64,000 nt of DNA, from positions 1-64,000 of the IMG/VR virus record IMGVR_UViG_3300042731_011319, one strand, 5' to 3'. Positions 4,042-64,000 of this stretch are shown piece after piece. Made by a program: the position numbers and the translations under genes. The notes under the pieces are model-generated. The model saw only the letters and a program-made list of their open reading frames with translations. It was not told the origin of the DNA and made no database searches. This DNA comes from a virus. The first letter of the stretch is position 1; each line of letters starts with the position of its first letter.

Positions 4042-4572
4042 TTAACTTGGAGATTTTTTAATGTCGCAGACAATGATAACATTATAACCATCGCTTGGCT
4101 CGTCCCTAGTGTAAATGTACTCTACGTGATGACCAAACCTAGAAGTAAGCTCGGATAATTTATTTTTCATAAAATCTAAACCCATATCTAAATGCTTATG
4201 AGCTTTATTCCAAATATGAGGTTGATGCTTATTGACTTCTCTGTACCTCTGCTCGTCAGGAAAAAATAAAATTAATCTTCCATTATCTTTTAAGATTCTC
4301 ACCATTTCGTTTAAAACGACAGCAGTATCCACGAAATCCTCGATCAAATGCGAAGAGAAGACAATATCAAATTGACCATCTTCAATCGGTAGACCTTTTG
4401 TGATATCAGCAGGTATGTCGTTTTTATCTTCACCAACCTTGGTATAAGGATTGGGGAGATCAGAGCCGATGGCATGAGGTACAACTTTACTGCCCCCAAA
4501 TCCAATATCAATTATATTATTTGAGTTGAGGTAGTTTAAAATATGTTTTTTATGTGATTTTGTTTCTGACAT
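4042..4572 (-). CDS. SAM-dependent methyltransferase (Methyltransf_11-like)
   Basis: IDIGFGG, FDIVFSSHLIED, RILKDNG. Confidence 0.8.
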   Translation of the reverse strand: MSETKSHKKHILNYLNSNNIIDIGFGGSKVVPHAIGSDLPNPYTKVGEDKNDIPADITKGLPIEDGQFDIVFSSHLIEDFVDTAVVLNEMVRILKDNGRLILFFPDEQRYREVNKHQPHIWNKAHKHLDMGLDFMKNKLSELTSRFGHHVEYIYTRDEPSDGYNVIIVCDIKKSPS

Positions 4573-4596
4573 TTTATTTTCTTTTATTATATAATA

Positions 4597-5358
4597 TTAA
4601 TATTTCCAATTAAATCTATTAATTTCTTCTCTGTAATATTTGGAGACAAGGTTTTTAGTTTCAACATTGTAGTAATCTCTATAGTTTTTTATAGAAATAG
4701 GTGTATTTGATTCGATCAATTCTTTTTTGCTGTCAAGTATATTTTTTTGACCAAGCACTTCAGATGACCAAGATAAACCTGCTTCTGAGCGAGATGACAA
4801 ATCTTTTGTATATGGAAATGTATTATATAATGAATCAATATCGACATTTAAATAATCACATAGTGAGCCTAATTGATCCTGAATTTGATCATATTTGATA
4901 ATATGAACATCCTCTTCACCAATCAACCAATCATAGCATCGAAGTGGAGCAATATAATCAGTTAAATTATATTTTTTTAAAAATATTTCGTCTGGAGTTT
5001 CAGTAAAGAAACAATAATTGTGAGTATCCTTAATTTCATTTACATAACAATTCAGCCAACTAGAAAAATCAACAAAGGAAGCCCAAATATAAGGAATATG
5101 ATAGATAGATACTAAGTGATCCCAAGGGTTGCGAATAATAGAAAATTTAAAATAATTTTTGATTTTCGAGTCAACCTGCACAAGTTGATTTAACGTCCAA
5201 TGTTTTGCGTCTTTTCCTTTTATGAAAGTAACTTCTTCCCAAAATTCTGAAGAAGATAACTTATTTGCATAAAAGATATTATAAATTTGATTGCACAAAT
5301 AACTACCAGAAGTTCTTGGTATATGTATAAATGCTAATTTTAGTTGATGGCAAATCAT
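4597..5358 (-). CDS. Sulfotransferase family 2
   Basis: 5'-PSB FIHIPRTSGS, 3'-PB FSIIRNPWDHLVSIY, C-terminal YRDYY...EINRFNWKY. Confidence 0.85.
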   Translation of the reverse strand: MICHQLKLAFIHIPRTSGSYLCNQIYNIFYANKLSSSEFWEEVTFIKGKDAKHWTLNQLVQVDSKIKNYFKFSIIRNPWDHLVSIYHIPYIWASFVDFSSWLNCYVNEIKDTHNYCFFTETPDEIFLKKYNLTDYIAPLRCYDWLIGEEDVHIIKYDQIQDQLGSLCDYLNVDIDSLYNTFPYTKDLSSRSEAGLSWSSEVLGQKNILDSKKELIESNTPISIKNYRDYYNVETKNLVSKYYREEINRFNWKY

Positions 5359-5729
5359 TATGATAAAACATCTTTTATTTCAGCCTCTTGCATTTTAATT
5401 TTATGCATTAAAGTCCAAGTGACATTTTTTAAGGAAATTAATTGCCCAAGATCAATTTCTCTTTCGGGAGGTATATCAATGCAATCTTGATTTAGTACAA
5501 TCAACTCATCTAGCGCATCAAGTTGCTTCTTATATAAAACCATTAAAACTTGAATACAGCTTAGAGATGTGTTTTTTAATCGCTTGCGTTGATCTAATTG
5601 TGGAAAAGAGTCTTGATTCAAAAAATTCTCAATCATTCTGATATTTGCAAGATGCTTAGCTTCAAAGTCGCAAATCTCTTCTGTGTAAAAATCAAAAGTA
5701 TCCCAAGCTAAATCAAGTTTATTTGTCAT
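5358..5729 (-). CDS. Hypothetical protein
   Basis: ORF coupled to both neighbours. Confidence 0.6.
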   Translation of the reverse strand: MTNKLDLAWDTFDFYTEEICDFEAKHLANIRMIENFLNQDSFPQLDQRKRLKNTSLSCIQVLMVLYKKQLDALDELIVLNQDCIDIPPEREIDLGQLISLKNVTWTLMHKIKMQEAEIKDVLS

Positions 5730-5899
5730 AAAATCTTTTGTAAAATTTCAAGCTCTTGAACCCCAAGATATTTAACAAAATAAATGCAAAAAGAAGTAAG
5801 CTCGGCATGAGACCAATTACTATTATTAACAATATCGGCAACTTCATCATAGTTGCCATTTTGCCAAGTTTCAGTTAATACTATAAATTCAGAATTCAT
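5726..5899 (-). CDS. 57-aa hypothetical protein
   Basis: Not in the ORF track; MNSEFIVLTETWQNG...ILQKIL; stop overlaps the next ATG (ATGA). Confidence 0.55.
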   Translation of the reverse strand: MNSEFIVLTETWQNGNYDEVADIVNNSNWSHAELTSFCIYFVKYLGVQELEILQKIL

Positions 5900-8959: not shown

Positions 8960-9742
8960 TTAATATTTAACAGTTTGAGAGGAAACAATAAAAAATGGAT
9001 TCAGTAAGTTTTCTTTATTATATAATAAAGGTTCTTTAGTGTCAGCAACAAGAACTTTAGCACCACTTTCTTCGGAAATTATTTGTGGAGCGCAAGTGTC
9101 CCATTCCATGGTTGGGCCAAATCTAGGGTAAATATCAGCTTGACCTTCTGCCACCAAGCAAAATTTTAGGGAGCTTCCGATATTAATAGTTGCTACTTCG
9201 TAATTATCTTTTAATTTATTAATAAACTCTTCGGTTTCTTTATTTAAATGAGACTTGCTCGCAACTACATTGATCTTATTTTCTTGGAAATTGTGGGAAT
9301 AATTTGCATATATGCGCTCATCATTTTTAAATGAACCAACTCCTTGGATTCCGTAATACTGATCTTGTTTTTTGGGGCAAGCAACATAACCAAATACAGG
9401 CTCATCTCCTTTACATAGGGCGATATTAATGCAAAAATCATCCCCGCCCGCAACAAATTCTTTGGTTCCGTCAATTGGGTCGATTAACCAATAATAATCC
9501 CAATCTTTGCGGTCTTCATAATTGATATGCTGATCCTCTTCAGAGATAATATTTGACACTTTTGTGTTAGCAAATAGAAATTCCCTTATCCTTTTGTTGG
9601 AATGAAGATCGGCCTCGGTAAGAGGGCTTTTATCATCCTTCTGCAAAGTCTCAAAACCATTTGCTTGTATCTCTACAACTTCTTTGGAAAGTTCGGCACC
9701 AAAAGATAGCAGTGAATCGATAAATGTTTTATTTATTTGCAT
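8960..9742 (-). CDS. cysQ: 3'(2'),5'-bisphosphate nucleotidase CysQ (PAP phosphatase)
   Basis: KDDKSPLTEAD, IISEE, WLIDPIDGTKEF, VASKSH, GSSLKFCLVAEGQADIYPRFGPTMEWDT. Confidence 0.93.
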   Translation of the reverse strand: MQINKTFIDSLLSFGAELSKEVVEIQANGFETLQKDDKSPLTEADLHSNKRIREFLFANTKVSNIISEEDQHINYEDRKDWDYYWLIDPIDGTKEFVAGGDDFCINIALCKGDEPVFGYVACPKKQDQYYGIQGVGSFKNDERIYANYSHNFQENKINVVASKSHLNKETEEFINKLKDNYEVATINIGSSLKFCLVAEGQADIYPRFGPTMEWDTCAPQIISEESGAKVLVADTKEPLLYNKENLLNPFFIVSSQTVKY

Positions 9743-10104: not shown

Positions 10105-12789
10105 TTAAAAAATTGCCGCAACTGCTTGGACAGAATCATTAAACATGACCACTTCAGGGATCTCGGCGGTATAGTCAAGTCCAACTGATTGAAAAATGAT
10201 ATTTATATCATCGCTTCCAAGCCAGTTTGAGAAGCTTTGGCTTACATTGCTATTAACTGTCCATCCAGCATAATAATAAGCATCAACGGGTGTCGTTGAA
10301 TCTACAGATAACGATGTCCATGAATTAGATTCTGATAGTGAATCTGTAAAAAAGTATGAAGCCATTTCACTGCCATCAGAGCTGTTTATCAGGCCGCAAG
10401 GCATCCAGCCATAAACATCTGAATCGAAATAAGTATTCATAGATAATGCAACATCTATTGCCAAACTATCTGAAGAATACCCTCTTTTAACGATGAATGC
10501 ATACATGTATGCTGCAGCCACACAACTATGAGGTGCTTGAGCGGAATCAGCCGTCAAATTGTACAAATCTAGCCTGCCGGCACTTCCATTTTCAGTAATA
10601 GTAACTTCTGGCTCAAACGAAATCCAGCCATCAAACACACTATTAACACAGGGATCACTTGACCCCAATGAGCTCTCATCGGAATCTTCTTCGATTACCG
10701 TTAGATTATCTAACTCCCAAGTCGCACGACGAGTTTTAAATACATCATTCTTTAGGTCATCTGGAAAAGGATCATCGTCCGCTCCAAATAGTATAGGGAA
10801 GCCTATGCAGTTTTTGATAGTATTACCGAAAGTTTTCAGCACATCCTTGATCGTATCGGAAGTAGATACCGAATTAACAGCATTAGAAAGTGCAGTTGTA
10901 CCAGAGAGAAAATTGGTGACATTTTCACATTTTGTGCCTTTTAATTTCCAACCAGGAAATAACTGACTATTAAATACAGTATTATCCTTAAACATATTTT
11001 TTACAGATATTGCATTACTTACATCCCATCCTTTAACTGGCTGATTAAATACAGACGACTCAAACATGCCACTAAAATCAACTTCTTTTTCATTTTCAGC
11101 GAGGTTTTGGCCAAATTGTCCAGCCCATGCGGGTAGTTGTGAATCAAAAGCCGTGTTGCTTTTGAACATGTTCTTGAAAGATTTTACTTTGCCAATATTC
11201 CAGCTATTGGTAGATTCGCCAAAAGAACTACCCTCAAACATACTTTCGAAACTTTCGACATTAGAAGTATTCCAGTATTCAGTTCCTGGCTCAGCCCAAA
11301 CAGTCTGATTAAATGAAGAGGCATTACAAAACATTCCTTTCATAGTGGTTGCAGAGCCAGTTTTCCATTTACGAATTGGTTTATTGAAAGAGCTCGCACC
11401 GCGAAACATGTTCTTGAACGAATTCACATTAGAAACATCCCACTGAGCTGAAAAACCATTGTATTCTTTTGCGTTATGAAACATTCCCTCCATTTTTTGA
11501 GCCTTAGAAACATCAATTCCTCCAAGATATTGCTTGAAATCAGCATTATTTTTAAACATGTTCTTGAAATTAGTAACATTAGAAGTATTCCAGAATTCAT
11601 TGATACCTGCTCTATTGTAAACAGTACCCTCAAGGAAGCTTTCGACACTTACAGTTTGGCTAACATCCCAATGCTTAATATTAACTGCTTTATAAGCGGA
11701 GTACTCGAAGCATCCAGTCAAATCGGTTAAATTACCCCCACTGACATTATTAAGCTTAAAATGATAAACATAAGAAGAACAGCCAGACATAAATCCAAGC
11801 ATGCTTGTAATTCCATCCAAGTTCAGATTTGAAAGCACACTGCTGTACTTAAAATTAGTACATCCTGCAAACATATGGTCAATTGCTCCAGAGAAAGACT
11901 GAGTATGGCCAGCCATGTTTTCAACTCGCTGCATGCCATAATTTGCAAAATCTCCAACTCCATGCAATTTAAAATTAGTGCCCAAATTGATTCTGAAAGC
12001 TTTACGTTTATTCATTGGGTTGATACTGTTACTATTAAAAGTAAAAATATCATATGCAGATTCATCGACACTGTAGCGCTGAGTTAACATGCCGCTCCAT
12101 TCACTTAAAGCAGGTGCAATACTTGTATCAACAGAATCGACAATTTCAAACTCAGAACTGTATGTAATCCCATCGATGTCATAAAAATATTGCAAAAAGC
12201 CTGATTGTGTTTTTGTGTCTAGCTCGCCGTTAGAATAAGTTGCATCTAAATGAGAATTAGATTCAAGTCGAAAATTAACATCATTAGATGGGATACTGTA
12301 TTTTTCACCCTTAACAAGTTTGATCCCATCAGAACTACTAACCCCAATATAATCCCCACTAAACTTAAACACTAAATCAGTTTGATTTATTGACATGCTC
12401 AGATCGCCTTTTTGATTGTTTAAAAACACATTAGAGCCATATCGTGCGACAGACTGCTTGGGTAATGCCAAATAAGATTCCGTATCGGAGGCGAAGTTTT
12501 TCCAGCCGCCCGTTATTGAAACTAATTTTAAACCTGCATTACTGTGATATCTAATTGTCTGTGAAGTATTGTCCGTGTGGATAAGGTTGACTTTTTTGTC
12601 GGAAATAACAATACCATTATTACTGTTATTTGAATATGTAATATTCTGTTGTCCGCCCTCGCCCCAATTAACAGTAGCGCTAAATATGGGGTTACTGCTA
12701 GTAATCCCGGGAGTGTCTGATGCCCCAGCAATTACGAACGATACAATATCTTGGGGTGTATAATAACCTTTGAATTCTAATTGAGCCAT
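10105..12789 (-). CDS. BspA/DUF285-type surface repeat protein
   Basis: Many ~25-aa WDVSNV..F..MF....FNQ repeats; GTGTA element at 12822-12826. Confidence 0.85.
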   Translation of the reverse strand: MAQLEFKGYYTPQDIVSFVIAGASDTPGITSSNPIFSATVNWGEGGQQNITYSNNSNNGIVISDKKVNLIHTDNTSQTIRYHSNAGLKLVSITGGWKNFASDTESYLALPKQSVARYGSNVFLNNQKGDLSMSINQTDLVFKFSGDYIGVSSSDGIKLVKGEKYSIPSNDVNFRLESNSHLDATYSNGELDTKTQSGFLQYFYDIDGITYSSEFEIVDSVDTSIAPALSEWSGMLTQRYSVDESAYDIFTFNSNSINPMNKRKAFRINLGTNFKLHGVGDFANYGMQRVENMAGHTQSFSGAIDHMFAGCTNFKYSSVLSNLNLDGITSMLGFMSGCSSYVYHFKLNNVSGGNLTDLTGCFEYSAYKAVNIKHWDVSQTVSVESFLEGTVYNRAGINEFWNTSNVTNFKNMFKNNADFKQYLGGIDVSKAQKMEGMFHNAKEYNGFSAQWDVSNVNSFKNMFRGASSFNKPIRKWKTGSATTMKGMFCNASSFNQTVWAEPGTEYWNTSNVESFESMFEGSSFGESTNSWNIGKVKSFKNMFKSNTAFDSQLPAWAGQFGQNLAENEKEVDFSGMFESSVFNQPVKGWDVSNAISVKNMFKDNTVFNSQLFPGWKLKGTKCENVTNFLSGTTALSNAVNSVSTSDTIKDVLKTFGNTIKNCIGFPILFGADDDPFPDDLKNDVFKTRRATWELDNLTVIEEDSDESSLGSSDPCVNSVFDGWISFEPEVTITENGSAGRLDLYNLTADSAQAPHSCVAAAYMYAFIVKRGYSSDSLAIDVALSMNTYFDSDVYGWMPCGLINSSDGSEMASYFFTDSLSESNSWTSLSVDSTTPVDAYYYAGWTVNSNVSQSFSNWLGSDDINIIFQSVGLDYTAEIPEVVMFNDSVQAVAAIF

Positions 12790-12907: not shown

Positions 12908-13537
12908 TTAAGCGGGTTTTTCGAATTTATAACCAAACCTAATGATGTCCGAGTGATATTTTTTTGCCACCATTCCGATAGTTTCTTCATCATAATATTC
13001 GCTATAATGCTTATGCTTGGTAGTATTTTGGGTAGGTAAGGCTTGATATGGAATGCCTATCTCTTGGCATGCATGCTTGTAGTCATCCGGAAGATTTTCG
13101 ACTTTACCTATAAAATTAAAATCTTCGGTTATCCATTTTAGTTGAGATGGTTCATGCATCCCCTGAAACGCGCTTTTAGTTAAAAAATCTTTAAATGATT
13201 GAGTACCTTCCTTCACTTTTAGGCAATCTTTGTAATAACCGGGAGCGCATAATTGAATTTCTTTATCGTCAGCACATTTAAGTGTATAAAAATATTGAGA
13301 AACAATTCTCGAAAAAGGATTACGGACAAAGGCAAACCTATAGTATTCATTCCAGGCCAAACCTTCCTGATTAAAATATTCCTCCATTTTATTGCCAGTG
13401 ACATGATGATAAAAATAAGATTTTCGGCCACCAACAGCTTTTACATCAGACCACCTGCATAAACGGTGACGCATGGCGGTAGTGGCATTTTTTGGTATCG
13501 ATATAAAAAGAAATTTTTTTCTGTGAGATAATACCAT
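12908..13537 (-). CDS. Sulfotransferase family 2
   Basis: FISIPKNATT, FAFVRNPFSRIVSQY, IGKVENL, HYSEYY...DIIRFGYKF. Confidence 0.9.
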   Translation of the reverse strand: MVLSHRKKFLFISIPKNATTAMRHRLCRWSDVKAVGGRKSYFYHHVTGNKMEEYFNQEGLAWNEYYRFAFVRNPFSRIVSQYFYTLKCADDKEIQLCAPGYYKDCLKVKEGTQSFKDFLTKSAFQGMHEPSQLKWITEDFNFIGKVENLPDDYKHACQEIGIPYQALPTQNTTKHKHYSEYYDEETIGMVAKKYHSDIIRFGYKFEKPA

Positions 13538-13560: not shown

Positions 13561-14211
13561 TTAAGTGGGTTTTGCGAATTTATAACCAAACCTAATTATA
13601 TCTGCGCGATATTTTCGAGCAACTATTTCCATTGTTTCTTCGTCATAGTATTCGCTATAATGTCTATGGGGAGTTTGATTTTTTATTGGAAGAGGTTTTC
13701 TGGTAATTCCCAGTTTTTTACAAACTATATCGAAATCAGTTTGCAAGGTTTCGAATCTGCCGATAAAGTCGCAGTCAACTATTTGAGATGCTTGATCTGA
13801 AAACCAAATGCCATCTTCAGCGGTATGATTAACTAAATTGATAGATACAAATTCTTTAAAATTACTTGGGACCACAAAGTTCTCTGAGCATTTTACGCCA
13901 TCGTGTTGCTGCATATATTTATATATAGACACTGCTCGATCAAAAGGATTACGCACAAATGCAAACTTAAAATAAGAATCTATTAATTGTCTGTCATCCT
14001 CGCATGTGTGATTCTTTAATACTTTATAGCTTACATGATTAGGGTCATCATCGTAGTTTTCATACAAAAATTGAGGCTTTAAAGCGTCAAAAACTTTATT
14101 GAACTGATGTTCTGTGCATTCATCGGAGCATTCCAATAATGAATATAGTATAGATGTAGAGGCAGTTTTAGGGACTCGAACGAAAACAGATTGTGTATTC
14201 CAAAAAATCAT
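13561..14211 (-). CDS. Sulfotransferase family 2
   Basis: FVRVPKTASTS, FAFVRNPFDRAVSIY, IGRFETL, HYSEYY...DIIRFGYKF. Confidence 0.9.
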   Translation of the reverse strand: MIFWNTQSVFVRVPKTASTSILYSLLECSDECTEHQFNKVFDALKPQFLYENYDDDPNHVSYKVLKNHTCEDDRQLIDSYFKFAFVRNPFDRAVSIYKYMQQHDGVKCSENFVVPSNFKEFVSINLVNHTAEDGIWFSDQASQIVDCDFIGRFETLQTDFDIVCKKLGITRKPLPIKNQTPHRHYSEYYDEETMEIVARKYRADIIRFGYKFAKPT

Positions 14212-14214
14212 AAT

Positions 14215-15267
14215 TTATATTAAAAAGTTAGATATAGTTTGATGCAGTTTCTTGACCCTTAATTTTATTTCAAAATCTAACTTGTCGGGCCAATTAGCAA
14301 AAAGTTTAGAAGCAATAGAATAATTATAATTTAAGATATTTAACACATCTAAGGAATTTACAGAATCCAAGCAAAATTGATTGACTTCGGACTGATTGAT
14401 CGGCTCAGCTTCGGCGATATTAATTCCAATAAAATCATGATGATTATTTGAATCGTAAAAAATAGGTATAGAGAGAGAAAGTACTGAGTCGAATATTTTT
14501 TCTGTAAGATAATTATTCTCGATTGTGTTTTCAAGTGCAAAAAGAAATTTAGCATTTTTAAAGCACCAATCTAGTTTATTTCTGTGAAAAGAATTTCCAG
14601 TATAAATAGTTTCTTCTGTCAAAGAGCCAAGTTCTTTATTTCCTCTGCCAAAAAAATCACAATTCAACTCTGGTATAGTGACAAGATAGTCTGCTAATTC
14701 ATCTTTTAATCCATTTAAGCACAAGCCTGTAGGATTCTTAGAGAAATCGAATTGATTTTGCTCAGGTGGAGTTTTGCGATAATATAATCCTGTAATATCA
14801 TATGTTTTGCTTTTGTAAATTTTATTAAAATCAATACGATTTAAAAGATTTAAGTAAAACTGATAATTTTTTAAGTAAACTTGGTCGGTAGTCAAGAAAT
14901 AAGGTATATATTTATATTCAAAAATGTCAGTAAATTTATGATTAATAACGTGGTAATGAAAATATAAGCTATCATCATCCTTATCCCTAGCAATATAATC
15001 ACCTTTATCAGATCGAGTAAAAGTAGACCAGCTATTGTCCCAAACAGGCTCTTCGCTAACCAATATAACTGGCTTATTTTGCTTTACCGATAAAAATCCA
15101 GAAAAATCTTTACGAATATCATTAATATAAGAAAATAAAATAAAATCCGCATCATTAGGACAATCGACTTCACAAAAGAACTTACTTAATTCCGCTTGGT
15201 ATGAAGCATAAGAAAATAGGCAAATTTTTGTACTATAGCCGTATTTATAATATTTAATTAAACTCAT
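14215..15267 (-). CDS. GT10 (alpha-1,3-fucosyltransferase-like) glycosyltransferase
   Basis: KFLFALENT...YLTEKIFDS....IPIFY GT10 signature; SEEP motif. Confidence 0.75.
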   Translation of the reverse strand: MSLIKYYKYGYSTKICLFSYASYQAELSKFFCEVDCPNDADFILFSYINDIRKDFSGFLSVKQNKPVILVSEEPVWDNSWSTFTRSDKGDYIARDKDDDSLYFHYHVINHKFTDIFEYKYIPYFLTTDQVYLKNYQFYLNLLNRIDFNKIYKSKTYDITGLYYRKTPPEQNQFDFSKNPTGLCLNGLKDELADYLVTIPELNCDFFGRGNKELGSLTEETIYTGNSFHRNKLDWCFKNAKFLFALENTIENNYLTEKIFDSVLSLSIPIFYDSNNHHDFIGINIAEAEPINQSEVNQFCLDSVNSLDVLNILNYNYSIASKLFANWPDKLDFEIKLRVKKLHQTISNFLI

Positions 15268-16099
15268 GAATAGTATAAGTCTTTGCAGAATCCTGAACGA
15301 TATGCCAAGACCTTCTTTGGGAGTCAGGTCGCCAAGGGTTTAATTGAGACCATATTCTATTTCTCTGTATCTCGTAAAACAAACGAATATCAGGGCAATT
15401 TTCTGGTGGGCTCATTTTATTTAAATGCTCAACAATTTTCATGGCGTTAAATTTATCTTTGCCAGAAAGAGAAGAAAAGTCAGGATTTAACAAGTCATCC
15501 AAATCCAATAATGTTTGATTGATATAACGAGCTTCTTGGGTAGACTCTATGTGATTAAATAAATCATAATTAAAGTCTAGACCTTCGAGTTTAAGAGCTG
15601 ACAAGCGGTTGTATAAATCAGAGTCATCCCAGCCATAAGTTGTGATTCCTTCATGATAACCATTGACCCGCCAAAAATCTTCAGTCTTGCAGTAAAGTTG
15701 TCCATTTAGATGAAGTTCGTTTTCATTTCTGGCAATTTTCCAATTACCACGAAAAAAAGAAAATTCAGGTAAAATGTGAAAACTCAAAAAAGTTGGGTCA
15801 AGTACAATATCTGAGTCTAACTTTAAAATATGGTCATATTTAGCGAAAGAAATTGCCAGATTAAATGCATGACTTAAAATCCATTTTGGCTGATTATTGA
15901 CTCTCAACAATTTAATATCTTTTGATGCACAATTCCGGTGTAAATCAGAATATTTAATTGGCTCATCGGAAGACCAATCAAGCACAATGATTTCACTGAC
16001 TTCATCTAATTCATCCCACGACTTTATCGAAAGCAGAAGATTATCAGTGCGATTCATTGCACAGGTTACGAGAGAACACCCTTTCTTGAAGCTTTTCAT
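15254..16099 (-). CDS. GT2/GT7C-like glycosyltransferase
   Basis: CAMNR, LDWSS, KLDSD (DxD), VNGYHE...YGWDDSDL. Confidence 0.8.
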   Translation of the reverse strand: MKSFKKGCSLVTCAMNRTDNLLLSIKSWDELDEVSEIIVLDWSSDEPIKYSDLHRNCASKDIKLLRVNNQPKWILSHAFNLAISFAKYDHILKLDSDIVLDPTFLSFHILPEFSFFRGNWKIARNENELHLNGQLYCKTEDFWRVNGYHEGITTYGWDDSDLYNRLSALKLEGLDFNYDLFNHIESTQEARYINQTLLDLDDLLNPDFSSLSGKDKFNAMKIVEHLNKMSPPENCPDIRLFYEIQRNRIWSQLNPWRPDSQRRSWHIVQDSAKTYTIHEFN

Positions 16100-16113: not shown

Positions 16114-16809
16114 CTAAAATGAAGTACCACTCTCTAAAAACTTATAGGTTTCATACATGCAACTTGGCGACAAATAATGAGATGAAATTTTACCATTCAA
16201 GAGTTGTTTTTTTGCAAAATCATCAGATTCATGAGCCCAATTCAAATCTGCATTACGATCTGCAAACGGAATCCATAAACCTTCGTTTAACTGAATGTTG
16301 TCTATAATTTCAATTCCTGCATCCCTCATAGATGCAGCAACTCCAATATCCTCACCTCCTTCTTGATGTAAATAAAAATCAAGATGATTCCAAGCTTTTT
16401 GAATTGCAGATCGCGATAAAATATAACCTGACCCCCCTTGAGCATATGGTAGTCCTTTGAAATTTTTTTTCTTTCCTATATACAAATCATCTTGGGGGTT
16501 AAAATTTTTTAGGTACTCTTTGAGAAGTTCGAAATTAACAAAAGTGTCATCATCGCATTTAAATAAAAAGTCCCAATCGTGAGACAAGGACTGTTTTAAC
16601 ATTTTATAAGTTTTTTCAGGAAGCCTACTGCGACTCTCACCCAAGTCGGGAGAGCAGTTCAGGGTATTTTTCATTGATTTAGACTGAACTAAGTCACCAT
16701 AAAAAAAATATTCATGAGGGCTTTCAATACCTTTCAGCCAAGTATTTAAGCAGGCATCGGCCTGCTCTTGTGTTTCGCTGCAGGTTAATACACAAACTAA
16801 TATTTTCAA
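16114..16809 (-). CDS. GT31/Fringe-like glycosyltransferase
   Basis: FLFKCDDDTFVN, YAQGGSGYILS, EDIGV. Confidence 0.8.
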   Translation of the reverse strand: MKILVCVLTCSETQEQADACLNTWLKGIESPHEYFFYGDLVQSKSMKNTLNCSPDLGESRSRLPEKTYKMLKQSLSHDWDFLFKCDDDTFVNFELLKEYLKNFNPQDDLYIGKKKNFKGLPYAQGGSGYILSRSAIQKAWNHLDFYLHQEGGEDIGVAASMRDAGIEIIDNIQLNEGLWIPFADRNADLNWAHESDDFAKKQLLNGKISSHYLSPSCMYETYKFLESGTSF

Positions 16810-60306: not shown

Positions 60307-61299
60307 TTAATATCCGTCAGAATCATTACAATTCTGCATTTGATTATAAATCCATTCGTATGTTTTTTCAAGTCCATCTTCAAGAGTAATCGATGGAGCC
60401 CAGCCAAGAACTTCTTTGATCATAGTATTGTCACTATTGCGGCCACGAACCCCCTGGGGTGCATCCAGATTATAGTTGCGTTTTAATTTAAGCCCAGCAA
60501 TACCTTCAACAATATCAACAAGTTGATTGATTGAAACCATACGGTCGCTTCCAAGATTCAATGGGCGGGAGTCTCCCTTGTTCCACATTAGTTCCATGCC
60601 AGTAATGCAATCATCAATAAACATAAAAGAACGGGTCTGTTCGCCGTCTCCCCAAATTTCGATTTCATGCTTACCACTCATTTTAGCCTCAATAACTTTA
60701 CGGCAGATTGCAGCAGGAGCTTTCTCTCTACCACCTCTCCATGTGCCGAAAGGTCCATAAACGTTATGGTAACGACAGGTGCGAGAATCAATATCAAAAT
60801 CTTTTCCGTAATAGTAGGTGATGAGTTCGCTAAATAACTTCTCCCATCCATAACCATCGTCTGGATTAGCTGGAAATACATCAGATTCTTTGAGGGCTTG
60901 AGACTCTTGGTCTTTAATTTCAGACTGAATTGCAGCAGGATAAACACAAGCAGTAGAGCTATAAAGAACTTCTTTTACTCCATTATCTCGTGCAGCCATC
61001 ATCATATGAGTCTGGATAAGTACATTTTCCATACAAAGGGCTTGGTTGTGCTCGACGAAACCCATGCCGCCCATATTACAAGCAAGGTTATAAATTCGGT
61101 CAACTCCAACACTTAGCTTATAGCAATGATTTTTTTCTTGGAGGTTACAATCAGGATGATTTTCGGCCGCGTCAAATGTCTGATACCACATATCTGCGGG
61201 CTTAATATCGGCCGCAATAACTTCGTGCCCTTGGGCCAATAAATCTTTAACTAAATAACCAGCAATAAAGCCGCCTGCTCCTCCAACTAGTATTTTCAT
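60307..61299 (-). CDS. GDP-mannose 3,5-epimerase-like SDR
   Basis: GAGGFIA, NMGGMGF, YSSTACVYP, YGWEK, GGREKAPAA.CRK, GVRGRNSDN. Confidence 0.85.
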   Translation of the reverse strand: MKILVGGAGGFIAGYLVKDLLAQGHEVIAADIKPADMWYQTFDAAENHPDCNLQEKNHCYKLSVGVDRIYNLACNMGGMGFVEHNQALCMENVLIQTHMMMAARDNGVKEVLYSSTACVYPAAIQSEIKDQESQALKESDVFPANPDDGYGWEKLFSELITYYYGKDFDIDSRTCRYHNVYGPFGTWRGGREKAPAAICRKVIEAKMSGKHEIEIWGDGEQTRSFMFIDDCITGMELMWNKGDSRPLNLGSDRMVSINQLVDIVEGIAGLKLKRNYNLDAPQGVRGRNSDNTMIKEVLGWAPSITLEDGLEKTYEWIYNQMQNCNDSDGY

Positions 61300-62078
61300 T
61301 TTATATGTTTTTTTATAGTGTCATCGAAATCTTCTAATTCACATTCTGCTTTATAATGGTTAAACCAAATTTCTTCATCATCTTTAAATGATTTAATCTT
61401 AGACCCATGAAACTTAGCACTATGTATTGATAGCCTTTTAATTCTTTCTCGATCAGGAGGATTTATTAGCCATTTTTGTGATCCATCTAGATAAAGACCG
61501 CAATTTGAGTATATATCTCTTACTGATTGATTTCTGATTCTTTGGGTATAGGTTTTACCGTAAAACTCAAAATAATTAAAACCGTTATTGTCTGAAATAA
61601 AATCTTGAATGGAATCGTGATTCCTTAATACCATATATTCGTCTGGGTCTATGTTTAGTATCCATGACTCAGGGCGTTGTAGCATATCCCAATACATTTT
61701 AACTTGACAAGAAGGGTGGCCACTATTATGGTCAACCCCATAAACCCAGGGAACTTCATGTACATTGGGGTACTTTGATATAACTTCGTTAAATTTAGAA
61801 AGTATATCATCATCAGAAAAATCATGGAAATAATCTAAATTAGGCTTGCAGCCCCATACCATTTTTTCTGGAGCAGTTCTTAAGGATTCCCTTCTTTCTA
61901 ATTCTTCTTTTTTTATGTTTTTCCAATACGCGTTTTGGTCAGAAATGGAAGTTAGCCCATTATTATAAATGTATATTGAATTTATGCCCAAGCTTAAATG
62001 GTGATCTATCCATTCTTCTAAAAAGAAAACTTCTTTTCGAAGTAAAATTACTGCGCACAATGTAACTGAGTTATTCAT
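61296..62078 (-). CDS. GT92/GT2-like glycosyltransferase
   Basis: EEWIDHH..LG...IYIYNN, IDPDEY. Confidence 0.7.
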   Translation of the reverse strand: MNNSVTLCAVILLRKEVFFLEEWIDHHLSLGINSIYIYNNGLTSISDQNAYWKNIKKEELERRESLRTAPEKMVWGCKPNLDYFHDFSDDDILSKFNEVISKYPNVHEVPWVYGVDHNSGHPSCQVKMYWDMLQRPESWILNIDPDEYMVLRNHDSIQDFISDNNGFNYFEFYGKTYTQRIRNQSVRDIYSNCGLYLDGSQKWLINPPDRERIKRLSIHSAKFHGSKIKSFKDDEEIWFNHYKAECELEDFDDTIKKHIK

Positions 62079-62901
62079 CTTTTATATTTTCTACCCAATA
62101 ATTAAAGTCTAATGTTTTATAATAAGGTTTTATTTTTTTAGATAATATATTATACTGTTCATTTAAGAAATTTTCAGTAATTTTTTGATAATCTTTTTGG
62201 TGATCTAAGAATAAAATTGGCAATTCAGAGTGATCAAATTGATTATACATGGGATCTTTTATAACGATAGGTATGGCTCCACAATAAAGGGTGTCATAGA
62301 ATCTAAACGAATCAGGCGCTGTACCCCTGGGGCATATAACAAACTTACTCCTTCTTAATTTAATAAAAAAATCTTCATTAGACATAAACCAAGAGCGCTT
62401 TGAGCCATTAAGACCTCTTAGGCCAATATTTTCCAGGGTATAAATGGGGTTGTCTTTTATAAATAAATAAATAGCCTTTCGGATCCAGCTTGTATTTAAT
62501 GAAAAGTTGCCGTAAACTAAAATATCGCGATCCCTCTTTTGAGTACTTTTGTGAAAACAATCTCTTGCCCTAAAATCTCTGCCCATTGGAAGAAACTTAA
62601 TAATGTCGTGAGTATAGTCGACATTATTGCAATAAATTTTTTTAATGTTATCAGGTATGTCTATATCTTTACTTAAGCAGCGATCTGTTTTGCCGCAAAT
62701 AATTGAGTAAATAAATGGTTTTTTAGATATAGGTTCAAAATATTCAAGTATCTTTTGAGGGTTAAAGGTATGCCTATGGCTGCCAATAAAAATAATAGAA
62801 TCTTGGTTTGGTATATCTTTGGCAGAGTTAACGGTAATAATACCGTTTTTTTTAAAAAAGGTTTCGTTAAATAAAAGCAGTATATCTTCCATTGGAAGCA
62901 T
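62071..62901 (-). CDS. GT47/exostosin-like glycosyltransferase
   Basis: SKFVICPRG...DSFRFYDTLYCGAIPI. Confidence 0.75.
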   Translation of the reverse strand: MLPMEDILLLFNETFFKKNGIITVNSAKDIPNQDSIIFIGSHRHTFNPQKILEYFEPISKKPFIYSIICGKTDRCLSKDIDIPDNIKKIYCNNVDYTHDIIKFLPMGRDFRARDCFHKSTQKRDRDILVYGNFSLNTSWIRKAIYLFIKDNPIYTLENIGLRGLNGSKRSWFMSNEDFFIKLRRSKFVICPRGTAPDSFRFYDTLYCGAIPIVIKDPMYNQFDHSELPILFLDHQKDYQKITENFLNEQYNILSKKIKPYYKTLDFNYWVENIKDE

Positions 62902-63479
62902 TACTTTTTTTGAATGCAGAATTGATCTTGCTGGTTGTCGAAATCCTCTATTTCGTCGAAACGGTCTTCGAGGAAACTATCAACTGCGGGCACTACACCG
63001 AAATCTAATAATCTTACTTGAGTATCACCGTCGATATATGCATTACCGCATAAAAACCCTTGAGGCTTTAATTTAGTCCACCAGATGTCAAGGTCTTGGC
63101 TTACAAAAGAATAGGAATGGTTAGCATCCAAGTATATCCAATCTAGTGATTCGTCTTCAAATTGATGAAGCGCATCAACAGAATATTTTTTGATGATATT
63201 TACCTTTGGCTCTGTAGAAAATCTAGAGGAAACTTCTTTGAAAATTTCGTCCATATCATCTTGTGGAATAGCATGCCATCTAGCAGGAATATCCATAATA
63301 CTATCCCAAGGATCAATTAGATTTAATTCTGAAGGGGATTGATCTAAGATACAAGATGAGAAATCGCCTTTGAATACTCCTACTTCCACACATTTGGAGT
63401 TAGGAGTAATTAGTTCTAATAAGGACTTTCGGCCGCTAGATAATTCAAAATAATAAGGAAGTGGAAATTGATCTGTCAT
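62901..63479 (-). CDS. SAM-dependent methyltransferase (Methyltransf_24-like)
   Basis: VEVGVFKG, IDPW, LDWIYLDANHSY. Confidence 0.85.
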   Translation of the reverse strand: MTDQFPLPYYFELSSGRKSLLELITPNSKCVEVGVFKGDFSSCILDQSPSELNLIDPWDSIMDIPARWHAIPQDDMDEIFKEVSSRFSTEPKVNIIKKYSVDALHQFEDESLDWIYLDANHSYSFVSQDLDIWWTKLKPQGFLCGNAYIDGDTQVRLLDFGVVPAVDSFLEDRFDEIEDFDNQQDQFCIQKK

Positions 63480-63482
63480 TGG

Positions 63483-64000
63483 TTAAAATTGGTAATTATA
63501 TTTATTAATATCCCCTTGATATATATTATACACAGCTCTTTTACTATCTTCCATATATAATTTTCTATAGTCTGAATTATTTGTTGAGTTAATTTTACGA
63601 AGATTAGTTCTTGGTAGTTGAAGTTTTTTTAAAATGTATGCATAGTCTTCTTGAATGTTTTCAAATCTAGCAAGATAATCAATATTAGAATCAAGGAAAT
63701 AATCATAAGCTTGAAAATGGATGCCAGATTGAAAAGAACCCTCTTCCCGTTTCATTAGTTTCATGAAGTCAGGGATATGATTGACGAATTCATTAAAATC
63801 CATTTCGTTTGCAGCATCTGATATAATGCTATTTCTTTTATACCAATGATGTCCTGGTTTTAGTTTGCGAAAATATTTATACGCCGAAACTACCCGATCA
63901 TATGGATTGCGAATAAAAGTAAACGAAAAATAATTAGAATGTTCAGAGTGATAAGACATTGGGGAATGACCAGAAAACCCAAGCGACTCTAAGTTAAGCT
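63483..64000 (-). CDS. Sulfotransferase family 2, 5'-truncated at window edge
   Basis: FTFIRNPYDRVVSAY, RFENI, YRKLY...DI..YNYQF; frame stays open to the window end. Confidence 0.85.
   Translation of the reverse strand, partial: LNLESLGFSGHSPMSYHSEHSNYFSFTFIRNPYDRVVSAYKYFRKLKPGHHWYKRNSIISDAANEMDFNEFVNHIPDFMKLMKREEGSFQSGIHFQAYDYFLDSNIDYLARFENIQEDYAYILKKLQLPRTNLRKINSTNNSDYRKLYMEDSKRAVYNIYQGDINKYNYQF

What the first reader, a model, noticed from the sequence alone, without database searches (positions are those of the whole stretch)
4042..64000. Self-contained phage sulfation system: PAPS supply, PAP recycling and at least six sulfotransferases among glycosyltransferases
Seen: six family-2 sulfotransferases (4597, 12908, 13561, 18511, 20576, 63483) plus one divergent copy (19155), APS kinase fused to a nucleotidyltransferase (30891), pyrophosphatase (22478) and CysQ (8960). 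They are interspersed with about eight GT-like genes, two methyltransferases and a WcbI-like gene. Established: ATP sulfurylase is unfavourable unless PPi is hydrolysed; APS kinase makes PAPS; sulfotransferases release inhibitory PAP, which CysQ degrades. No PAPS reductase or sulfite reductase is in the window. Inference: these genes form a closed donor-regeneration cycle for building a sulfated glycan rather than boosting sulfur assimilation. The acceptor could be the virion, the infected cell surface or, less likely, DNA. None of the sulfotransferases shows a signal peptide, which fits cytoplasmic modification of virion proteins.
Basis: partly seen in the sequence, partly recalled or inferred. 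Interest (0 to 1): 0.88.

Follow-up and report, generated by a model that had tools for sequence, protein, structure and literature searches.

The report
Phage sulfated-glycan factory with PAPS helpers
An uncultured marine phage carries at least ten sulfotransferases, about 25 glycosyltransferases and enzymes that make and clean up the sulfate donor PAPS, so it probably builds a sulfated fucose-rich glycan during infection, which has not been described for phages.

Summary
The window is the first 64 kb of a 109.7-kb IMG/VR phage contig. It encodes six Sulfotransfer_2 genes with intact PAPS-binding motifs, and four more lie outside the window. It also encodes a CysQ, an inorganic pyrophosphatase, an APS-kinase-like/nucleotidyltransferase fusion, six Pfam-supported glycosyltransferases and two methyltransferases.

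- "Self-contained" is too strong. There is no canonical ATP sulfurylase (Sat or CysD), and none in five complete relatives.
- The kinase domain is APS-kinase-like: the 46 best PDB fold matches are all APS kinases.
- The kinase tracks sulfotransferases. 35 of 45 viral records with the fusion carry sulfotransferases, including 13 of 14 near-complete ones.
- Sulfotransferase genes of two Pfam families (plus a sub-threshold third in Xylella phage Sano) lie next to or within a few kb of the fusion in separate lineages.
- All four GenBank phage records with a Sulfotransfer_2 homolog also carry the kinase.
- No PAPS reductase (cysH) was found, so sulfation is favoured over sulfur assimilation.
- CysQ occurs only in the closest, mostly sulfotransferase-rich relatives. 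There it sits directly beside the pyrophosphatase, and this phage has a 13-kb sulfotransferase/GT cassette inserted between them.

The fused nucleotidyltransferase resembles NadM NMN adenylyltransferases, not ATP sulfurylase, so its role is open. The acceptor is unknown. Soluble enzymes and the absence of a priming transferase fit cytoplasmic modification, possibly of virion proteins.

The parts
4042..4572 (-). SAM-dependent methyltransferase (Methyltransf_11)
   Evidence: Pfam 3.2e-10
4597..5358 (-). Sulfotransferase paralog (Sulfotransfer_2), 253 aa
   Evidence: Pfam 23.4 bits over the N-terminal part. Paralog HMM 6e-63. IPRTSGS and RNPWDHLVS motifs present.
8960..9742 (-). CysQ-type 3'(2'),5'-bisphosphate nucleotidase (PAP phosphatase)
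   Evidence: Inositol_P 2.2e-49. TIGR01331 227.4 bits against a cut-off of 228.8. PDB 3b8b CysQ 3e-56, with the SEE, DPIDGTKEF and WDT metal and substrate motifs aligned.
10105..12789 (-). 894-aa DUF285 (BspA-like repeat) protein inside the inserted cassette; candidate surface or fibre protein
   Evidence: Pfam DUF285 4e-69, five repeats. Absent at this site in relatives G002, G004 and G005.
12908..13537 (-). Sulfotransferase paralog (Sulfotransfer_2)
   Evidence: Pfam 1.3e-16, full length
13561..14211 (-). Sulfotransferase paralog (Sulfotransfer_2)
   Evidence: Pfam 1.4e-17, full length
14215..15267 (-). GT10-like (fucosyltransferase family) glycosyltransferase
   Evidence: Pfam Glyco_transf_10 1.4e-6
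15254..16099 (-). GT2 / Glyco_transf_7C glycosyltransferase
   Evidence: Pfam 1.1e-7 and 1.8e-5
16114..16809 (-). Fringe / GT31-like glycosyltransferase
   Evidence: Pfam Fringe 2.1e-11. Two paralogs at 67993 and 76215.
17190..17744 (-). Weak WcbI-like protein
   Evidence: Pfam WcbI 4.8e-5, 23.6 bits, below the 29.2 cut-off
18511..19161 (-). Sulfotransferase paralog (Sulfotransfer_2)
   Evidence: Pfam 2.1e-8. Paralog HMM 1.4e-67.
19155..19727 (-). Unassigned 190-aa protein; possible very divergent Sulfotransfer_1/3-like enzyme (unproven)
   Evidence: No Pfam or NCBIfam hit. Not related to the ST2 paralogs. IGDIHSGTRW motif. Atlas lead at 0.96 to viral clusters in which 26% of members carry Sulfotransfer_1.
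19727..20470 (-). DUF6492 / GT2-like glycosyltransferase
   Evidence: Pfam 4.6e-6
20576..21493 (-). Divergent sulfotransferase paralog with a ~60-aa insertion
   Evidence: Pfam 21.9 bits against a cut-off of 22; 22.3 with neighbouring matches in the frame. Paralog HMM 3.8e-9. IAKNAGT and LRDPFARSMS motifs present.
22478..22984 (-). Family I inorganic pyrophosphatase
   Evidence: Pfam 3.4e-47. NF002317 6.6e-46.
22981..23421 (-). Small stand-alone cytidylyl/adenylyl-transferase (RfaE domain II / TagD-like), overlapping the pyrophosphatase start
   Evidence: CTP_transf_like 9e-17. TIGR02199 1.6e-20 and TIGR01518 2e-12, both below cut-off. Adjacent to the pyrophosphatase in G001-G007.
30891..31697 (+). 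APS-kinase-like P-loop kinase (residues ~1-135) fused to a compact NadM-like HIGH nucleotidyltransferase (residues ~145-260)
   Evidence: Pfam APS_kinase 4e-13. The 46 best Foldseek PDB hits are all APS kinases. The NTase profile best matches NMNAT 2qjt at 3e-9. The start codon is conserved in homologs. Co-occurs and co-localises with sulfotransferases.
60307..61299 (-). GDP-mannose 3,5-epimerase (makes GDP-L-galactose / GDP-L-gulose)
   Evidence: PDB 8sg0 and 2c59 GDP-mannose 3,5-epimerase, 2.5e-94
61296..62078 (-). GT2_4 / GT92-like glycosyltransferase
   Evidence: Pfam 3.5e-10
62071..62901 (-). GT47 (exostosin)-like glycosyltransferase
   Evidence: Pfam 1.1e-8
62901..63479 (-). Methyltransferase (Methyltransf_24)
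   Evidence: Pfam 5.3e-14
63483..64000 (-). Sulfotransferase paralog; the gene runs to 64070, outside the window
   Evidence: Pfam 2.8e-14. Full gene 63483-64070.
261..617 (-). Mannose-6-phosphate isomerase-type cupin (GDP-mannose supply)
   Evidence: Pfam MannoseP_isomer 1.6e-31

Best explanation
This is a large, uncultured, lytic-type marine phage whose relatives have genomes of 150-220 kb. It devotes two variable islands to a cytoplasmic factory for a sulfated, fucose- and L-galactose-containing glycan. The islands lie at window ~4-23 kb and from 60 kb to ~83 kb of the contig.

The glycan side:
- GDP-sugar enzymes (a mannose-6-phosphate-isomerase cupin, Gmd, Fcl and GDP-mannose 3,5-epimerase) supply the sugar donors.
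- About 25 soluble glycosyltransferases of at least 12 families build the glycan.
- At least ten Sulfotransfer_2 paralogs and two methyltransferases decorate it.

The donor side consists of three helper genes:
- The kinase domain of the 30891 fusion most likely phosphorylates APS to PAPS.
- CysQ hydrolyses the inhibitory by-product PAP.
- The pyrophosphatase pulls PPi-releasing nucleotidyl transfers, whether sulfate activation, sugar activation or both.

APS itself comes either from the host ATP sulfurylase or, less certainly, from the fused NadM-like nucleotidyltransferase acting as a non-canonical ATP sulfurylase.

What is shown: the gene content, intact cofactor motifs, co-occurrence and neighbourhood patterns, and the fold of the kinase. 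What is inferred: enzyme activities, the sulfated product, and the acceptor. My guesses for the acceptor are virion proteins (~45%), the host envelope glycan (~35%) and something else (~20%).
For: **Sulfotransferases and sugar supply**
- Ten Sulfotransfer_2 paralogs carry conserved 5'-PSB and 3'-PB motifs.
- GT families 2, 10, 11, 23 (NodZ), 25, 31, 32, 47, 61, 90, 92 and Nucleotid_trans are present.
- Gmd (1e-77), Fcl (3e-101) and GDP-mannose 3,5-epimerase (2.5e-94) are identified.

**Kinase domain**
- Pfam APS_kinase 4e-13.
- The second Asp and the Arg of the DGDxxR motif, the LGF Phe, the EDR Arg and an ISP-like FVCP motif are conserved.
- The Foldseek hits listed through rank 46 are all APS kinases or APS-kinase domains.

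**Link between kinase and sulfotransferases**
- 30 of 45 fusion-bearing IMG/VR records carry Sulfotransfer_2 and 5 more carry Sulfotransfer_3. Among near-complete records the figure is 13 of 14.
- A Sulfotransfer_2 gene lies 2 nt downstream of the fusion in L068-L071, where it is the only one in up to 238 kb. It overlaps the fusion by 14 nt in L058 and lies within about 1 kb in many other loci.
- A Sulfotransfer_3 gene lies 0.6-4.7 kb away in L078, L060, G026 and G043.
- In Xylella phage Sano a Sulfotransfer_4-like protein sits two genes upstream of the fusion.
- Only 4 of 50,697 GenBank phage records have a Sulfotransfer_2 homolog, and all 4 are among the 16 records with the kinase.
- Ralstonia phage phiRSL1 has an annotated APS kinase, three GTs, two NTases and a sulfotransferase in seven contiguous co-oriented genes.

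**CysQ and pyrophosphatase**
- CysQ is found in only 8 of the 45 records. Seven of these carry 5-11 sulfotransferases; the eighth (G011, 53% complete) has none detected.
- CysQ lies within 0.4-0.9 kb of the pyrophosphatase in G002, G004, G005 and G011. NTase-PPase-CysQ is contiguous in G002, G004 and G005, whereas this phage has the ST/GT cassette inserted between PPase and CysQ.

**Against assimilation, and for a cytoplasmic route**
- No cysH, cysD or sat genes were found.
- No priming phosphoglycosyltransferase is present and no TM segments occur in the STs or GTs.
Against: - The kinase domain is well below the CysC equivalog cut-off (45.7 against 138.7 bits). Its first DGD Asp is Asn and its lid is about 25 residues shorter.
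- The fused NTase is closest to NadM NMN adenylyltransferases and gives no hit to ATP sulfurylase by sequence or fold.
- One complete fusion-bearing record (G028) has no Sulfotransfer_2 or Sulfotransfer_3.
- In this window the fusion sits in the nucleotide-metabolism block, 7 kb from the nearest sulfotransferase-cluster gene.
- Only 5 of 26 sulfotransferase-seeded viral records have an APS kinase.
- The CysQ-sulfotransferase correlation is confounded by relatedness, because the CysQ-bearing records are the closest relatives.
- The pyrophosphatase also occurs in relatives with few sulfotransferases.
- No product, acceptor or host is known, and many of the records are fragments.
Confidence: 0.62

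Rival explanations
1. The kinase-NTase fusion is not part of the sulfation system. It is a nucleotide or NAD-type salvage or anti-defence enzyme, functionally like NadR (a kinase plus an NMN-adenylyltransferase-like domain). On this view it is a core gene of the clade, and the sulfotransferases simply draw on host PAPS.
For: - The NTase domain carries the NadM signatures GRxQPxHxGH and ISATKIR. Its best profile hits are the NMNATs 2qjt (3e-9), 1f9a and 2qjo (NCBIfam).
- The fusion is conserved at 72-93% identity across the clade while sulfotransferase number varies from 0 to 11.
- In this window it lies among genes for dUTPase, dNMP kinase, a deoxyribosyltransferase-like protein and UvdE.
- In Sano a NADAR-domain gene is its immediate neighbour.
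- Many sulfotransferase-bearing phages lack it.
Against: - The kinase fold and sequence are specifically APS-kinase-like.
- Sulfotransferases of Sulfotransfer_2 and Sulfotransfer_3, plus the sub-threshold Sulfotransfer_4-like Sano gp33, lie adjacent or close to it in separate lineages.
- The GenBank overlap is 4 of 4.
- The NTase lacks the ~50-residue region that holds NMN in NadM enzymes.
- No Nampt partner gene is present.
Confidence: 0.2
2. cysC-like, cysQ and ppa are auxiliary metabolic genes that boost host assimilatory sulfate reduction and cysteine supply during infection. This is how viral cysC has been read in virome surveys. On this view the sulfotransferases are unrelated cargo.
For: Viral cysC and cysQ are listed as organosulfur auxiliary metabolic genes of the assimilation pathway, and cysC is reported as concentrated in marine and freshwater viruses (preprint 10.1101/2021.01.05.425418, read).
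Against: - No cysH, cysD, cysN or sat genes occur in this phage or in the complete relatives tested.
- The kinase co-occurs and co-localises with sulfotransferases.
- Seven of the eight records with CysQ are sulfotransferase-rich genomes.
- Ten sulfotransferases would consume PAPS rather than feed its reduction.
Confidence: 0.05
3. The glycan factory remodels the infected cell's own envelope glycan rather than the virion. The target would be lipooligosaccharide, lipopolysaccharide core or capsule assembled at the cytoplasmic face. The purpose would be to block superinfection or to prevent progeny being lost on cell debris.
For: - GT10, GT11, GT25, GT32 and HtrL-like families are typical of bacterial LOS and LPS decoration.
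- No phage-encoded primer or exporter is needed if the host lipid A-core or host carriers are used.
- The islands are hypervariable between relatives, as O-antigen loci are.
Against: - Roughly a quarter or more of the contig's ORFs are invested in this system in a phage with no sign of lysogeny.
- No membrane-associated enzyme is present.
- A large repeat protein (DUF285) travels with the cassette and could be a virion acceptor.
- There is no direct evidence either way.
Confidence: 0.3
4. The sugars and sulfate are added to phage DNA as a hypermodification that protects it from restriction.
For: - In phiRSL1 the APS kinase/GT/sulfotransferase genes are annotated with T4-type DNA glucosyltransferase names and sit next to a thymidylate-synthase-family gene.
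- In Sano the sulfotransferase-like gene and the fusion lie in the DNA-metabolism block.
- The window has a C5 DNA methylase and nucleotide enzymes near the fusion.
Against: - About 25 GTs of eukaryote- and LPS-like families, fucosyltransferases and GDP-fucose/GDP-L-galactose supply point to a complex glycan, not a base modification.
- No hydroxymethylase was seen in the window.
Confidence: 0.05

Closest known systems
Bacterial PAPS-dependent sulfated glycan loci, such as Sinorhizobium NodP/NodQ (ATP sulfurylase/APS kinase) with the NodH sulfotransferase, and sulfated capsule clusters of marine bacteria (e.g. Vibrio sp. KMM 8419, PMC11641403, listed but not read)
   Same: A dedicated APS kinase is paired with sulfotransferases and glycosyltransferases. 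PAPS is used as a sulfo donor rather than for assimilation.
   Different: This system is encoded by a phage. It has 10 or more sulfotransferases, no canonical ATP sulfurylase, no lipid-carrier priming or export genes, and the kinase is fused to a NadM-like nucleotidyltransferase.
Metazoan bifunctional PAPS synthase (PAPSS1/2)
   Same: An N-terminal APS kinase domain is followed by a C-terminal HIGH-superfamily nucleotidyltransferase domain. The PAPSS1 kinase domain is the best structural match (2ofx, E 1.6e-9).
   Different: The protein is 268 aa instead of about 620 aa. The C-terminal domain matches NadM NMNAT, not ATP sulfurylase, and has no PUA-like domain. The kinase lid is shortened.
Ralstonia jumbo phage phiRSL1, ORF232-ORF238
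   Same: A cultured phage has an annotated APS kinase, three GTs, two nucleotidyltransferases and a sulfotransferase in seven contiguous co-oriented genes. The kinase and the sulfotransferase are homologous to those of the window.
   Different: It has one sulfotransferase instead of ten. The match covers only the kinase part. No CysQ or pyrophosphatase is noted in the stretch inspected. As far as I could find, its function has never been tested.
Virion glycosylation by phage-encoded glycosyltransferases in mycobacteriophages, and glycan factories of giant viruses (chloroviruses, mimivirus). This comparison is from my own knowledge and was not checked here.
   Same: Virus-encoded soluble GTs and sugar-nucleotide enzymes modify virion proteins in the cytoplasm without the host secretory or lipid-carrier route.
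   Different: Sulfation and a donor-support set (APS kinase, CysQ) are not known for those systems. The acceptor here is unknown.

Membership tests
Sulfotransfer_2 (PF03567) PAPS-dependent sulfotransferases | Profile match above the Pfam gathering score | tested here: met
   Five of the six window genes score 23.4-65.1 bits against a cut-off of 22. The 20576 gene scores 21.9, or 22.3 with neighbouring matches.
Sulfotransfer_2 (PF03567) PAPS-dependent sulfotransferases | 5'-phosphosulfate-binding loop (PKxxxT/S) and 3'-phosphate-binding motif (RxPxxRxxS) | tested here: met
   Both motifs are present in all ten paralogs. The Lys is replaced by Arg in two of them; two others have Ala or Asn in place of the Pro.
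Sulfotransfer_2 (PF03567) PAPS-dependent sulfotransferases | PAPS-dependent sulfo transfer to an acceptor | not testable with these tools
   Needs an enzyme assay.
Adenylyl-sulfate (APS) kinase CysC (TIGR00455 / PF01583) | Profile match at equivalog level | tested here: not met
   TIGR00455 scores 45.7 bits against a cut-off of 138.7. Pfam APS_kinase scores 50.1 bits against 21.1, but covers only model positions 5-91 of 152.
Adenylyl-sulfate (APS) kinase CysC (TIGR00455 / PF01583) | P-loop, DGDxxR, LGF...EDR...N..RR, the ISP motif and the lid with Lys and Phe | tested here: inconclusive
   Conserved: the P-loop, the second Asp and Arg of DGDxxR (as NADAVR), the LGF Phe and the EDR Arg. FVCP stands in place of FISP. 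Changed: the first Asp is Asn and the ENxRR Asn is His. The lid is shortened to an invariant EGRYEDTNKMF.
Adenylyl-sulfate (APS) kinase CysC (TIGR00455 / PF01583) | APS kinase fold | tested here: met
   The model has pLDDT 83.7. The Foldseek PDB hits listed through rank 46 are all APS kinases or APS-kinase domains, E 1.6e-9 to 6e-7.
ATP sulfurylase (Sat PF01747; CysD PF01507) | Profile match anywhere in the phage or in complete relatives | tested here: not met
   No match in G000 or in G002, G003, G005, G014 and G027.
ATP sulfurylase (Sat PF01747; CysD PF01507) | The fused NTase domain resembles Sat in sequence or fold | tested here: not met
   The profile hits NadM NMNATs, PPAT and PanC only. 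Foldseek gives generic HIGH nucleotidyltransferases at E of about 4e-3 and no ATP sulfurylase. The shared superfamily and an invariant YGR(D/G)VGY loop are only suggestive.
NadM-type NMN adenylyltransferase | GRxQPxHxGH and ISxTxxR motifs | tested here: met
   GRYQPFHIGH and SATKIR are invariant across 26 homologs.
NadM-type NMN adenylyltransferase | Full-length domain at equivalog level, including the NMN-binding region | tested here: not met
   TIGR01527 scores 20.8 bits against a cut-off of 181. The domain is about 115 aa against about 170 aa, and only the first ~77 residues superpose.
CysQ 3'(2'),5'-bisphosphate nucleotidase (TIGR01331) | Equivalog profile match, and a better match to CysQ than to other inositol-monophosphatase-family members | tested here: inconclusive
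   It scores 227.4 bits against a cut-off of 228.8, that is 1.4 bits short. The next families are far lower (HisN 106.8, SuhB 38.6). PDB CysQ 3b8b matches at 3e-56 against IMPases at 2e-20 or worse.
Family I inorganic pyrophosphatase (PF00719) | Profile match over the full domain | tested here: met
   160.5 bits against a cut-off of 23.5, covering positions 1-147 of 153.

The most novel reading that the evidence does not exclude
The 268-aa kinase-nucleotidyltransferase fusion is a minimal, phage-borne PAPS synthase. Its NadM-derived nucleotidyltransferase domain would have been recruited as a new type of ATP sulfurylase. It is widespread in marine and freshwater viromes, with more than 7,000 relatives in the protein search. 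Together with CysQ and the pyrophosphatase it would let the phage coat its virions, or the infected cell, with a sulfated fucan/galactan-like glycan. The abundant viral 'cysC' auxiliary gene would then be a marker of viral sulfation rather than of sulfur assimilation.
Probability: 0.3. Interest if true: 0.85.

Novelty: new variant of a known kind. Interest (0 to 1): 0.74.

Why it matters
- **Phage sulfotransferases have no known role.** One phage paper says so explicitly (PMC10580990), and the full-text searches turned up no paper describing one.
- **Viral cysC may need re-reading.** It has been read as an assimilatory sulfur auxiliary gene (10.1101/2021.01.05.425418). The co-occurrence and neighbourhood data here point to sulfation of glycans or other acceptors instead. 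That would change how a common marine and freshwater viral gene is counted in sulfur-cycle budgets.
- **A new kind of phage product.** A phage that invests a quarter or more of this contig's ORFs in a sulfated, fucose/L-galactose glycan suggests virion or cell-surface chemistry resembling algal sulfated polysaccharides. Such chemistry could affect adsorption, grazing, particle stickiness and enzymatic degradation.
- **A possible new enzyme.** The compact fusion is a testable candidate for a new route to PAPS.

Tried and rejected
- **Sano as an apparent counter-example.** I first treated the fusion's presence in the 56-kb Xylella phage Sano, which has no PF03567 hit, as evidence against a PAPS role. 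I dropped this after finding a sulfotransferase-like gene two genes upstream. It has LPRSRSAW and HRPAREVAHS motifs, a Sulfotransfer_4 match at 4e-4, and its only PDB hit is a tyrosine sulfotransferase at the 3'-PB motif. These hits are sub-threshold.
- **G026 as a sulfotransferase-free genome.** It does have a Sulfotransfer_3 gene, 4.7 kb from the fusion.
- **NAD salvage partner.** A search for Nampt found none.
- **Small NTase as an obligate pyrophosphatase partner.** The two are adjacent only in the closest relatives, and the pyrophosphatase is more widespread than this NTase.
- **19155 as a Sulfotransfer_2 paralog.** The paralog HMM and hhalign found nothing.
- **Close cultured relatives.** DnaE and the sheath-like protein give only distant hits (26-33% identity), so neither lineage nor host could be named.
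- **Sano gp33 and gp34 homologs.** phmmer found none in the fetched loci or in this genome.
- **Search limits.** As a result some ORFs beyond 83 kb, and other sulfotransferase families (Sulfotransfer_1, _4, _5), were not screened across all records.

Full report
**What the window is.** The 64-kb window is the first part of a single 109,722-bp IMG/VR virus record, which is linear with a CheckV completeness estimate of 81%. Nearly all genes are on the minus strand and GC content is about 34%. Phage identity rests on several genes:
- a DnaE-type polymerase (44731-47310), a proofreading exonuclease, DnaB, a primase, a RecA-like protein and a sigma-70-like factor;
- a ClpB-like ATPase;
- a tail fibre with an S74 chaperone domain and a sheath-like protein;
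- ribonucleotide reductase further along the contig.

No cultured phage is close; DnaE and the sheath-like protein give only 26-33% identity. Relatives in IMG/VR reach 150-220 kb, and the fusion protein discussed below has more than 7,000 relatives in public metagenomes, with Tara Oceans among the sources.

**Checking the observation.** Pfam confirms Sulfotransfer_2 in six window genes: 4597, 12908, 13561, 18511, 20576 and 63483. The 20576 gene is 0.1 bit under the cut-off, but an HMM of the other paralogs recovers it at 3.8e-9. The whole contig has ten such genes, whereas 14 control cellular genomes have none. All ten keep both PAPS-binding motifs.

The claimed seventh copy at 19155 is not a Sulfotransfer_2 relative and has no family hit. 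A P-loop-like IGDIHSGTRW motif and a language-model lead to viral clusters partly annotated Sulfotransfer_1 keep it possible but unproven.

The other claimed genes check out as follows:
- CysQ is solid. It scores 227.4 bits on TIGR01331, 1.4 bits under the cut-off but far above any other family member, and its best PDB match is CysQ 3b8b at 3e-56 with the catalytic motifs aligned.
- The pyrophosphatase is unambiguous.
- Six GT-like genes in the window have Pfam support, two methyltransferases are confirmed, and the WcbI-like hit is weak.
- No cysH, cysD or sat gene is present.
- No sulfotransferase or GT in the islands has a hydrophobic N-terminus or TM segment in a simple hydropathy scan, apart from one borderline N-terminal segment in the GT-like ORF at 74753-75535 outside the window.

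**The wider system.** The window shows only part of it. From 60 kb to about 83 kb of the contig lies a second island. It carries GT11, HtrL-like, GT25 (two copies), GT61, GT32/Caps_synth (two), GT31-like (two), GT2, GT90, Nucleotid_trans and NodZ/GT23-like genes, plus four more sulfotransferases. Sugar-donor genes are also present:
- GDP-mannose 3,5-epimerase at 60307-61299 (2.5e-94);
- Gmd at 92200-93231 and Fcl at 91259-92203;
- a mannose-6-phosphate-isomerase cupin at 261-617.

Three fucosyltransferase-type families (GT10, GT11, NodZ), together with GDP-fucose and GDP-L-galactose supply, point to a fucose/L-galactose-containing glycan. No priming phosphoglycosyltransferase (Bac_transf or WecA-type) exists in this phage or in four complete relatives.

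**Is the APS-kinase-like fusion really tied to sulfation?** This was the weakest link, so I tested it in several ways.

*Sequence.* The gene is 30891-31697 on the plus strand, and its start codon is conserved in homologs. Pfam APS_kinase matches at 4e-13, but only the N-terminal two thirds of the model. NCBIfam CysC models score far below their cut-offs. Several APS-binding positions are kept, while the first DGD Asp and one Asn differ and the lid is shortened to an invariant EGRYEDTNKMF.

*Fold.* An AlphaFold model (pLDDT 83.7) gives APS kinases or APS-kinase domains for every Foldseek PDB hit listed through rank 46.

*Co-occurrence.* Among 45 IMG/VR records retrieved through the fusion, 30 carry Sulfotransfer_2 and five more carry Sulfotransfer_3. 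Of the 14 near-complete records, 13 have one or the other.

*Neighbourhood.* In a lineage only 40% identical (L068-L071), the sole Sulfotransfer_2 gene in up to 238 kb starts 2 nt after the fusion. Other lineages show a 14-nt overlap (L058), 225 nt (L081/L082), about 1-1.6 kb (L061-L064), or a Sulfotransfer_3 gene 0.6-4.7 kb away (L078, L060, G026, G043). In Xylella phage Sano, which I first took as a sulfotransferase-free counter-example, the gene two positions upstream has both PAPS-binding motifs. It has a sub-threshold Sulfotransfer_4 hit, and its only PDB hit is a tyrosine sulfotransferase aligned at the 3'-PB motif.

*GenBank phages.* In the GenBank phage collection only 4 of 50,697 records have a Sulfotransfer_2 homolog, and all 4 are among the 16 records that contain the kinase. 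In phiRSL1 an annotated APS kinase and a sulfotransferase bracket three GTs and two nucleotidyltransferases in seven contiguous co-oriented genes.

*The reciprocal test.* The link is weaker in the other direction: only 5 of 26 sulfotransferase-seeded records have an APS kinase. This asymmetry is expected if the kinase exists to serve sulfotransferases while sulfotransferases can also live on host PAPS. Because members of different sulfotransferase families sit next to the same fusion, the shared link is the cofactor rather than a particular acceptor. I put the probability that the kinase domain makes PAPS at about 0.7.

**The fused nucleotidyltransferase.** It carries GRYQPFHIGH and SATKIR. 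Its profile best matches NadM-type NMN adenylyltransferases (2qjt at 3e-9), and no ATP sulfurylase appears by sequence or fold. It is about 115 residues long, and only the first ~77 superpose on known HIGH nucleotidyltransferases. The region that holds NMN in NadM enzymes is missing. Invariant Arg residues and a YGR(D/G)VGY loop remain.

The domain order matches metazoan PAPS synthase. ATP sulfurylase and NMNAT catalyse the same kind of reaction, attack of an oxyanion on the alpha-phosphate of ATP. A recruited minimal ATP sulfurylase is therefore an attractive hypothesis, but it is not shown, and I put it at about 0.35. An earlier first-stage note on this scan (e1-6047732) makes the same suggestion; it is not independent evidence. 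The rival reading is a NadR-like NAD or nucleotide enzyme. It is supported by the NadM similarity, by the NADAR neighbour in Sano and by the gene's position among nucleotide-metabolism genes here. No Nampt partner was found.

**CysQ and the pyrophosphatase.** CysQ occurs in only 8 of the 45 records. Seven of them are close relatives with 5-11 sulfotransferases; the eighth, G011, is 53% complete and shows none. This fits PAP removal, but it is confounded by relatedness.

In G002, G004 and G005 the small stand-alone nucleotidyltransferase, the pyrophosphatase and CysQ are contiguous. In this phage a ~13-kb cassette (10105-22370) lies between the pyrophosphatase and CysQ. The cassette carries four Sulfotransfer_2 genes, the 19155 gene, four Pfam-supported GTs, the WcbI-like gene and an 894-aa DUF285 repeat protein. 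The pyrophosphatase is more widespread than CysQ and than the small NTase. The small NTase looks like an RfaE-domain-II or TagD-type sugar or glycerol-phosphate activating enzyme. The pyrophosphatase may therefore serve sugar activation, sulfate activation or both.

**Verdict on the interpretation.** The core idea is supported by gene content, neighbourhoods and co-occurrence: this is a phage-encoded sulfation system with its own donor support, and it is not sulfur assimilation. The 'self-contained' and 'closed cycle' wording is not supported. A recognisable ATP sulfurylase and sulfate uptake are missing, AMP-to-ATP recycling needs host enzymes, and the kinase is a divergent family member whose activity is untested.

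The acceptor is open. Soluble enzymes, the lack of priming and export genes, hypervariable islands and a co-travelling repeat protein fit cytoplasmic modification of virion proteins. Decoration of host LOS/LPS at the inner leaflet is nearly as plausible. DNA modification is unlikely given the enzyme repertoire.

**Novelty.** Every part belongs to a known family, and bacterial PAPS-dependent glycan sulfation loci are known, so this is a new variant rather than a new kind. For phages it is essentially unexplored:
- one phage paper states that the function of phage sulfotransferases is unclear (PMC10580990);
- the main survey of viral organosulfur genes files cysC and cysQ under assimilation and does not mention sulfotransferases;
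- phrase searches for phage- or virus-encoded sulfotransferases returned nothing relevant.

**Limits.**
- Many of the compared records are fragments.
- The association tests are not corrected for phylogeny.
- Only Sulfotransfer_2 and Sulfotransfer_3 were screened across all records.
- The host is unknown.
- All functional statements are inferences from sequence.

Noticed in passing
window 10105-22370, compared with L086 (G002), L087 (G004) and L088 (G005): Relatives have NTase-PPase-CysQ as three contiguous genes with conserved flanks. This phage has a ~13-kb cassette of sulfotransferases, GTs and a DUF285 repeat protein inserted between the pyrophosphatase and CysQ, so the glycan island behaves as a swappable module.
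   Followed up: partly
L004:4008-5777 (Xylella phage Sano gp33-gp35): A 56-kb siphophage with no glycosyltransferase cluster in the stretch inspected carries three adjacent genes in its DNA-metabolism block: a sulfotransferase-like gene (sub-threshold Sulfotransfer_4, PAPS motifs), a NADAR-domain gene (6e-26) and the same kinase-NTase fusion. What a small phage would sulfate is unexplained.
   Followed up: partly
L085 (Ralstonia phage phiRSL1, ORF230-ORF238): An annotated APS kinase, three GTs, two nucleotidyltransferases and a sulfotransferase form seven contiguous co-oriented genes, with a hypothetical gene and then a thymidylate-synthase-family gene just beyond the sulfotransferase. This is a cultured system in which phage sulfation could be tested.
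   Followed up: no
G000 79775-80575 (L001:16775-17575), outside the window: A 266-aa protein with no Pfam hit starts FAIFGQERAGTTSLIAAL, which is 47% identical over 19 aa to the 5'-PSB region of a Sulfotransfer_3 protein. Later it has YRESAFYPAIS. It is possibly an eleventh sulfotransferase, of another family.
   Followed up: partly
G001:C1:27667-29601 and G003:C1:184293-186140: In close relatives two or three Sulfotransfer_2 domains lie in one open frame of 620-657 aa, and two lie in one 412-aa frame in G002 and G027. This suggests tandemly fused multi-sulfotransferase proteins.
   Followed up: no
window 60307-61299; G000 91259-93231: A plant-type GDP-mannose 3,5-epimerase (2.5e-94), together with Gmd and Fcl, gives the phage both GDP-L-galactose/L-gulose and GDP-L-fucose supply.
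   Followed up: yes
window 30584-31066 (-): A 160-aa minus-strand ORF with no family hit overlaps the 5' end of the plus-strand fusion gene by 176 nt. It is probably not a gene, or it is shorter than listed.
   Followed up: no
window 6564-6639 (-): A single tRNA-Thr (anticodon TGT).
   Followed up: no
L051:11291-12835 (G028): The one complete fusion-bearing record without Sulfotransfer_2 or Sulfotransfer_3 has a tryptophan-halogenase-family gene (6e-105) about 0.5 kb downstream of the fusion.
   Followed up: no
window 33632-34168 and 49807-50397: A nucleoside 2-deoxyribosyltransferase-like gene lies near the fusion, and a 2OG-Fe(II) oxygenase lies in the replication block. Their roles are unknown.
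   Followed up: no
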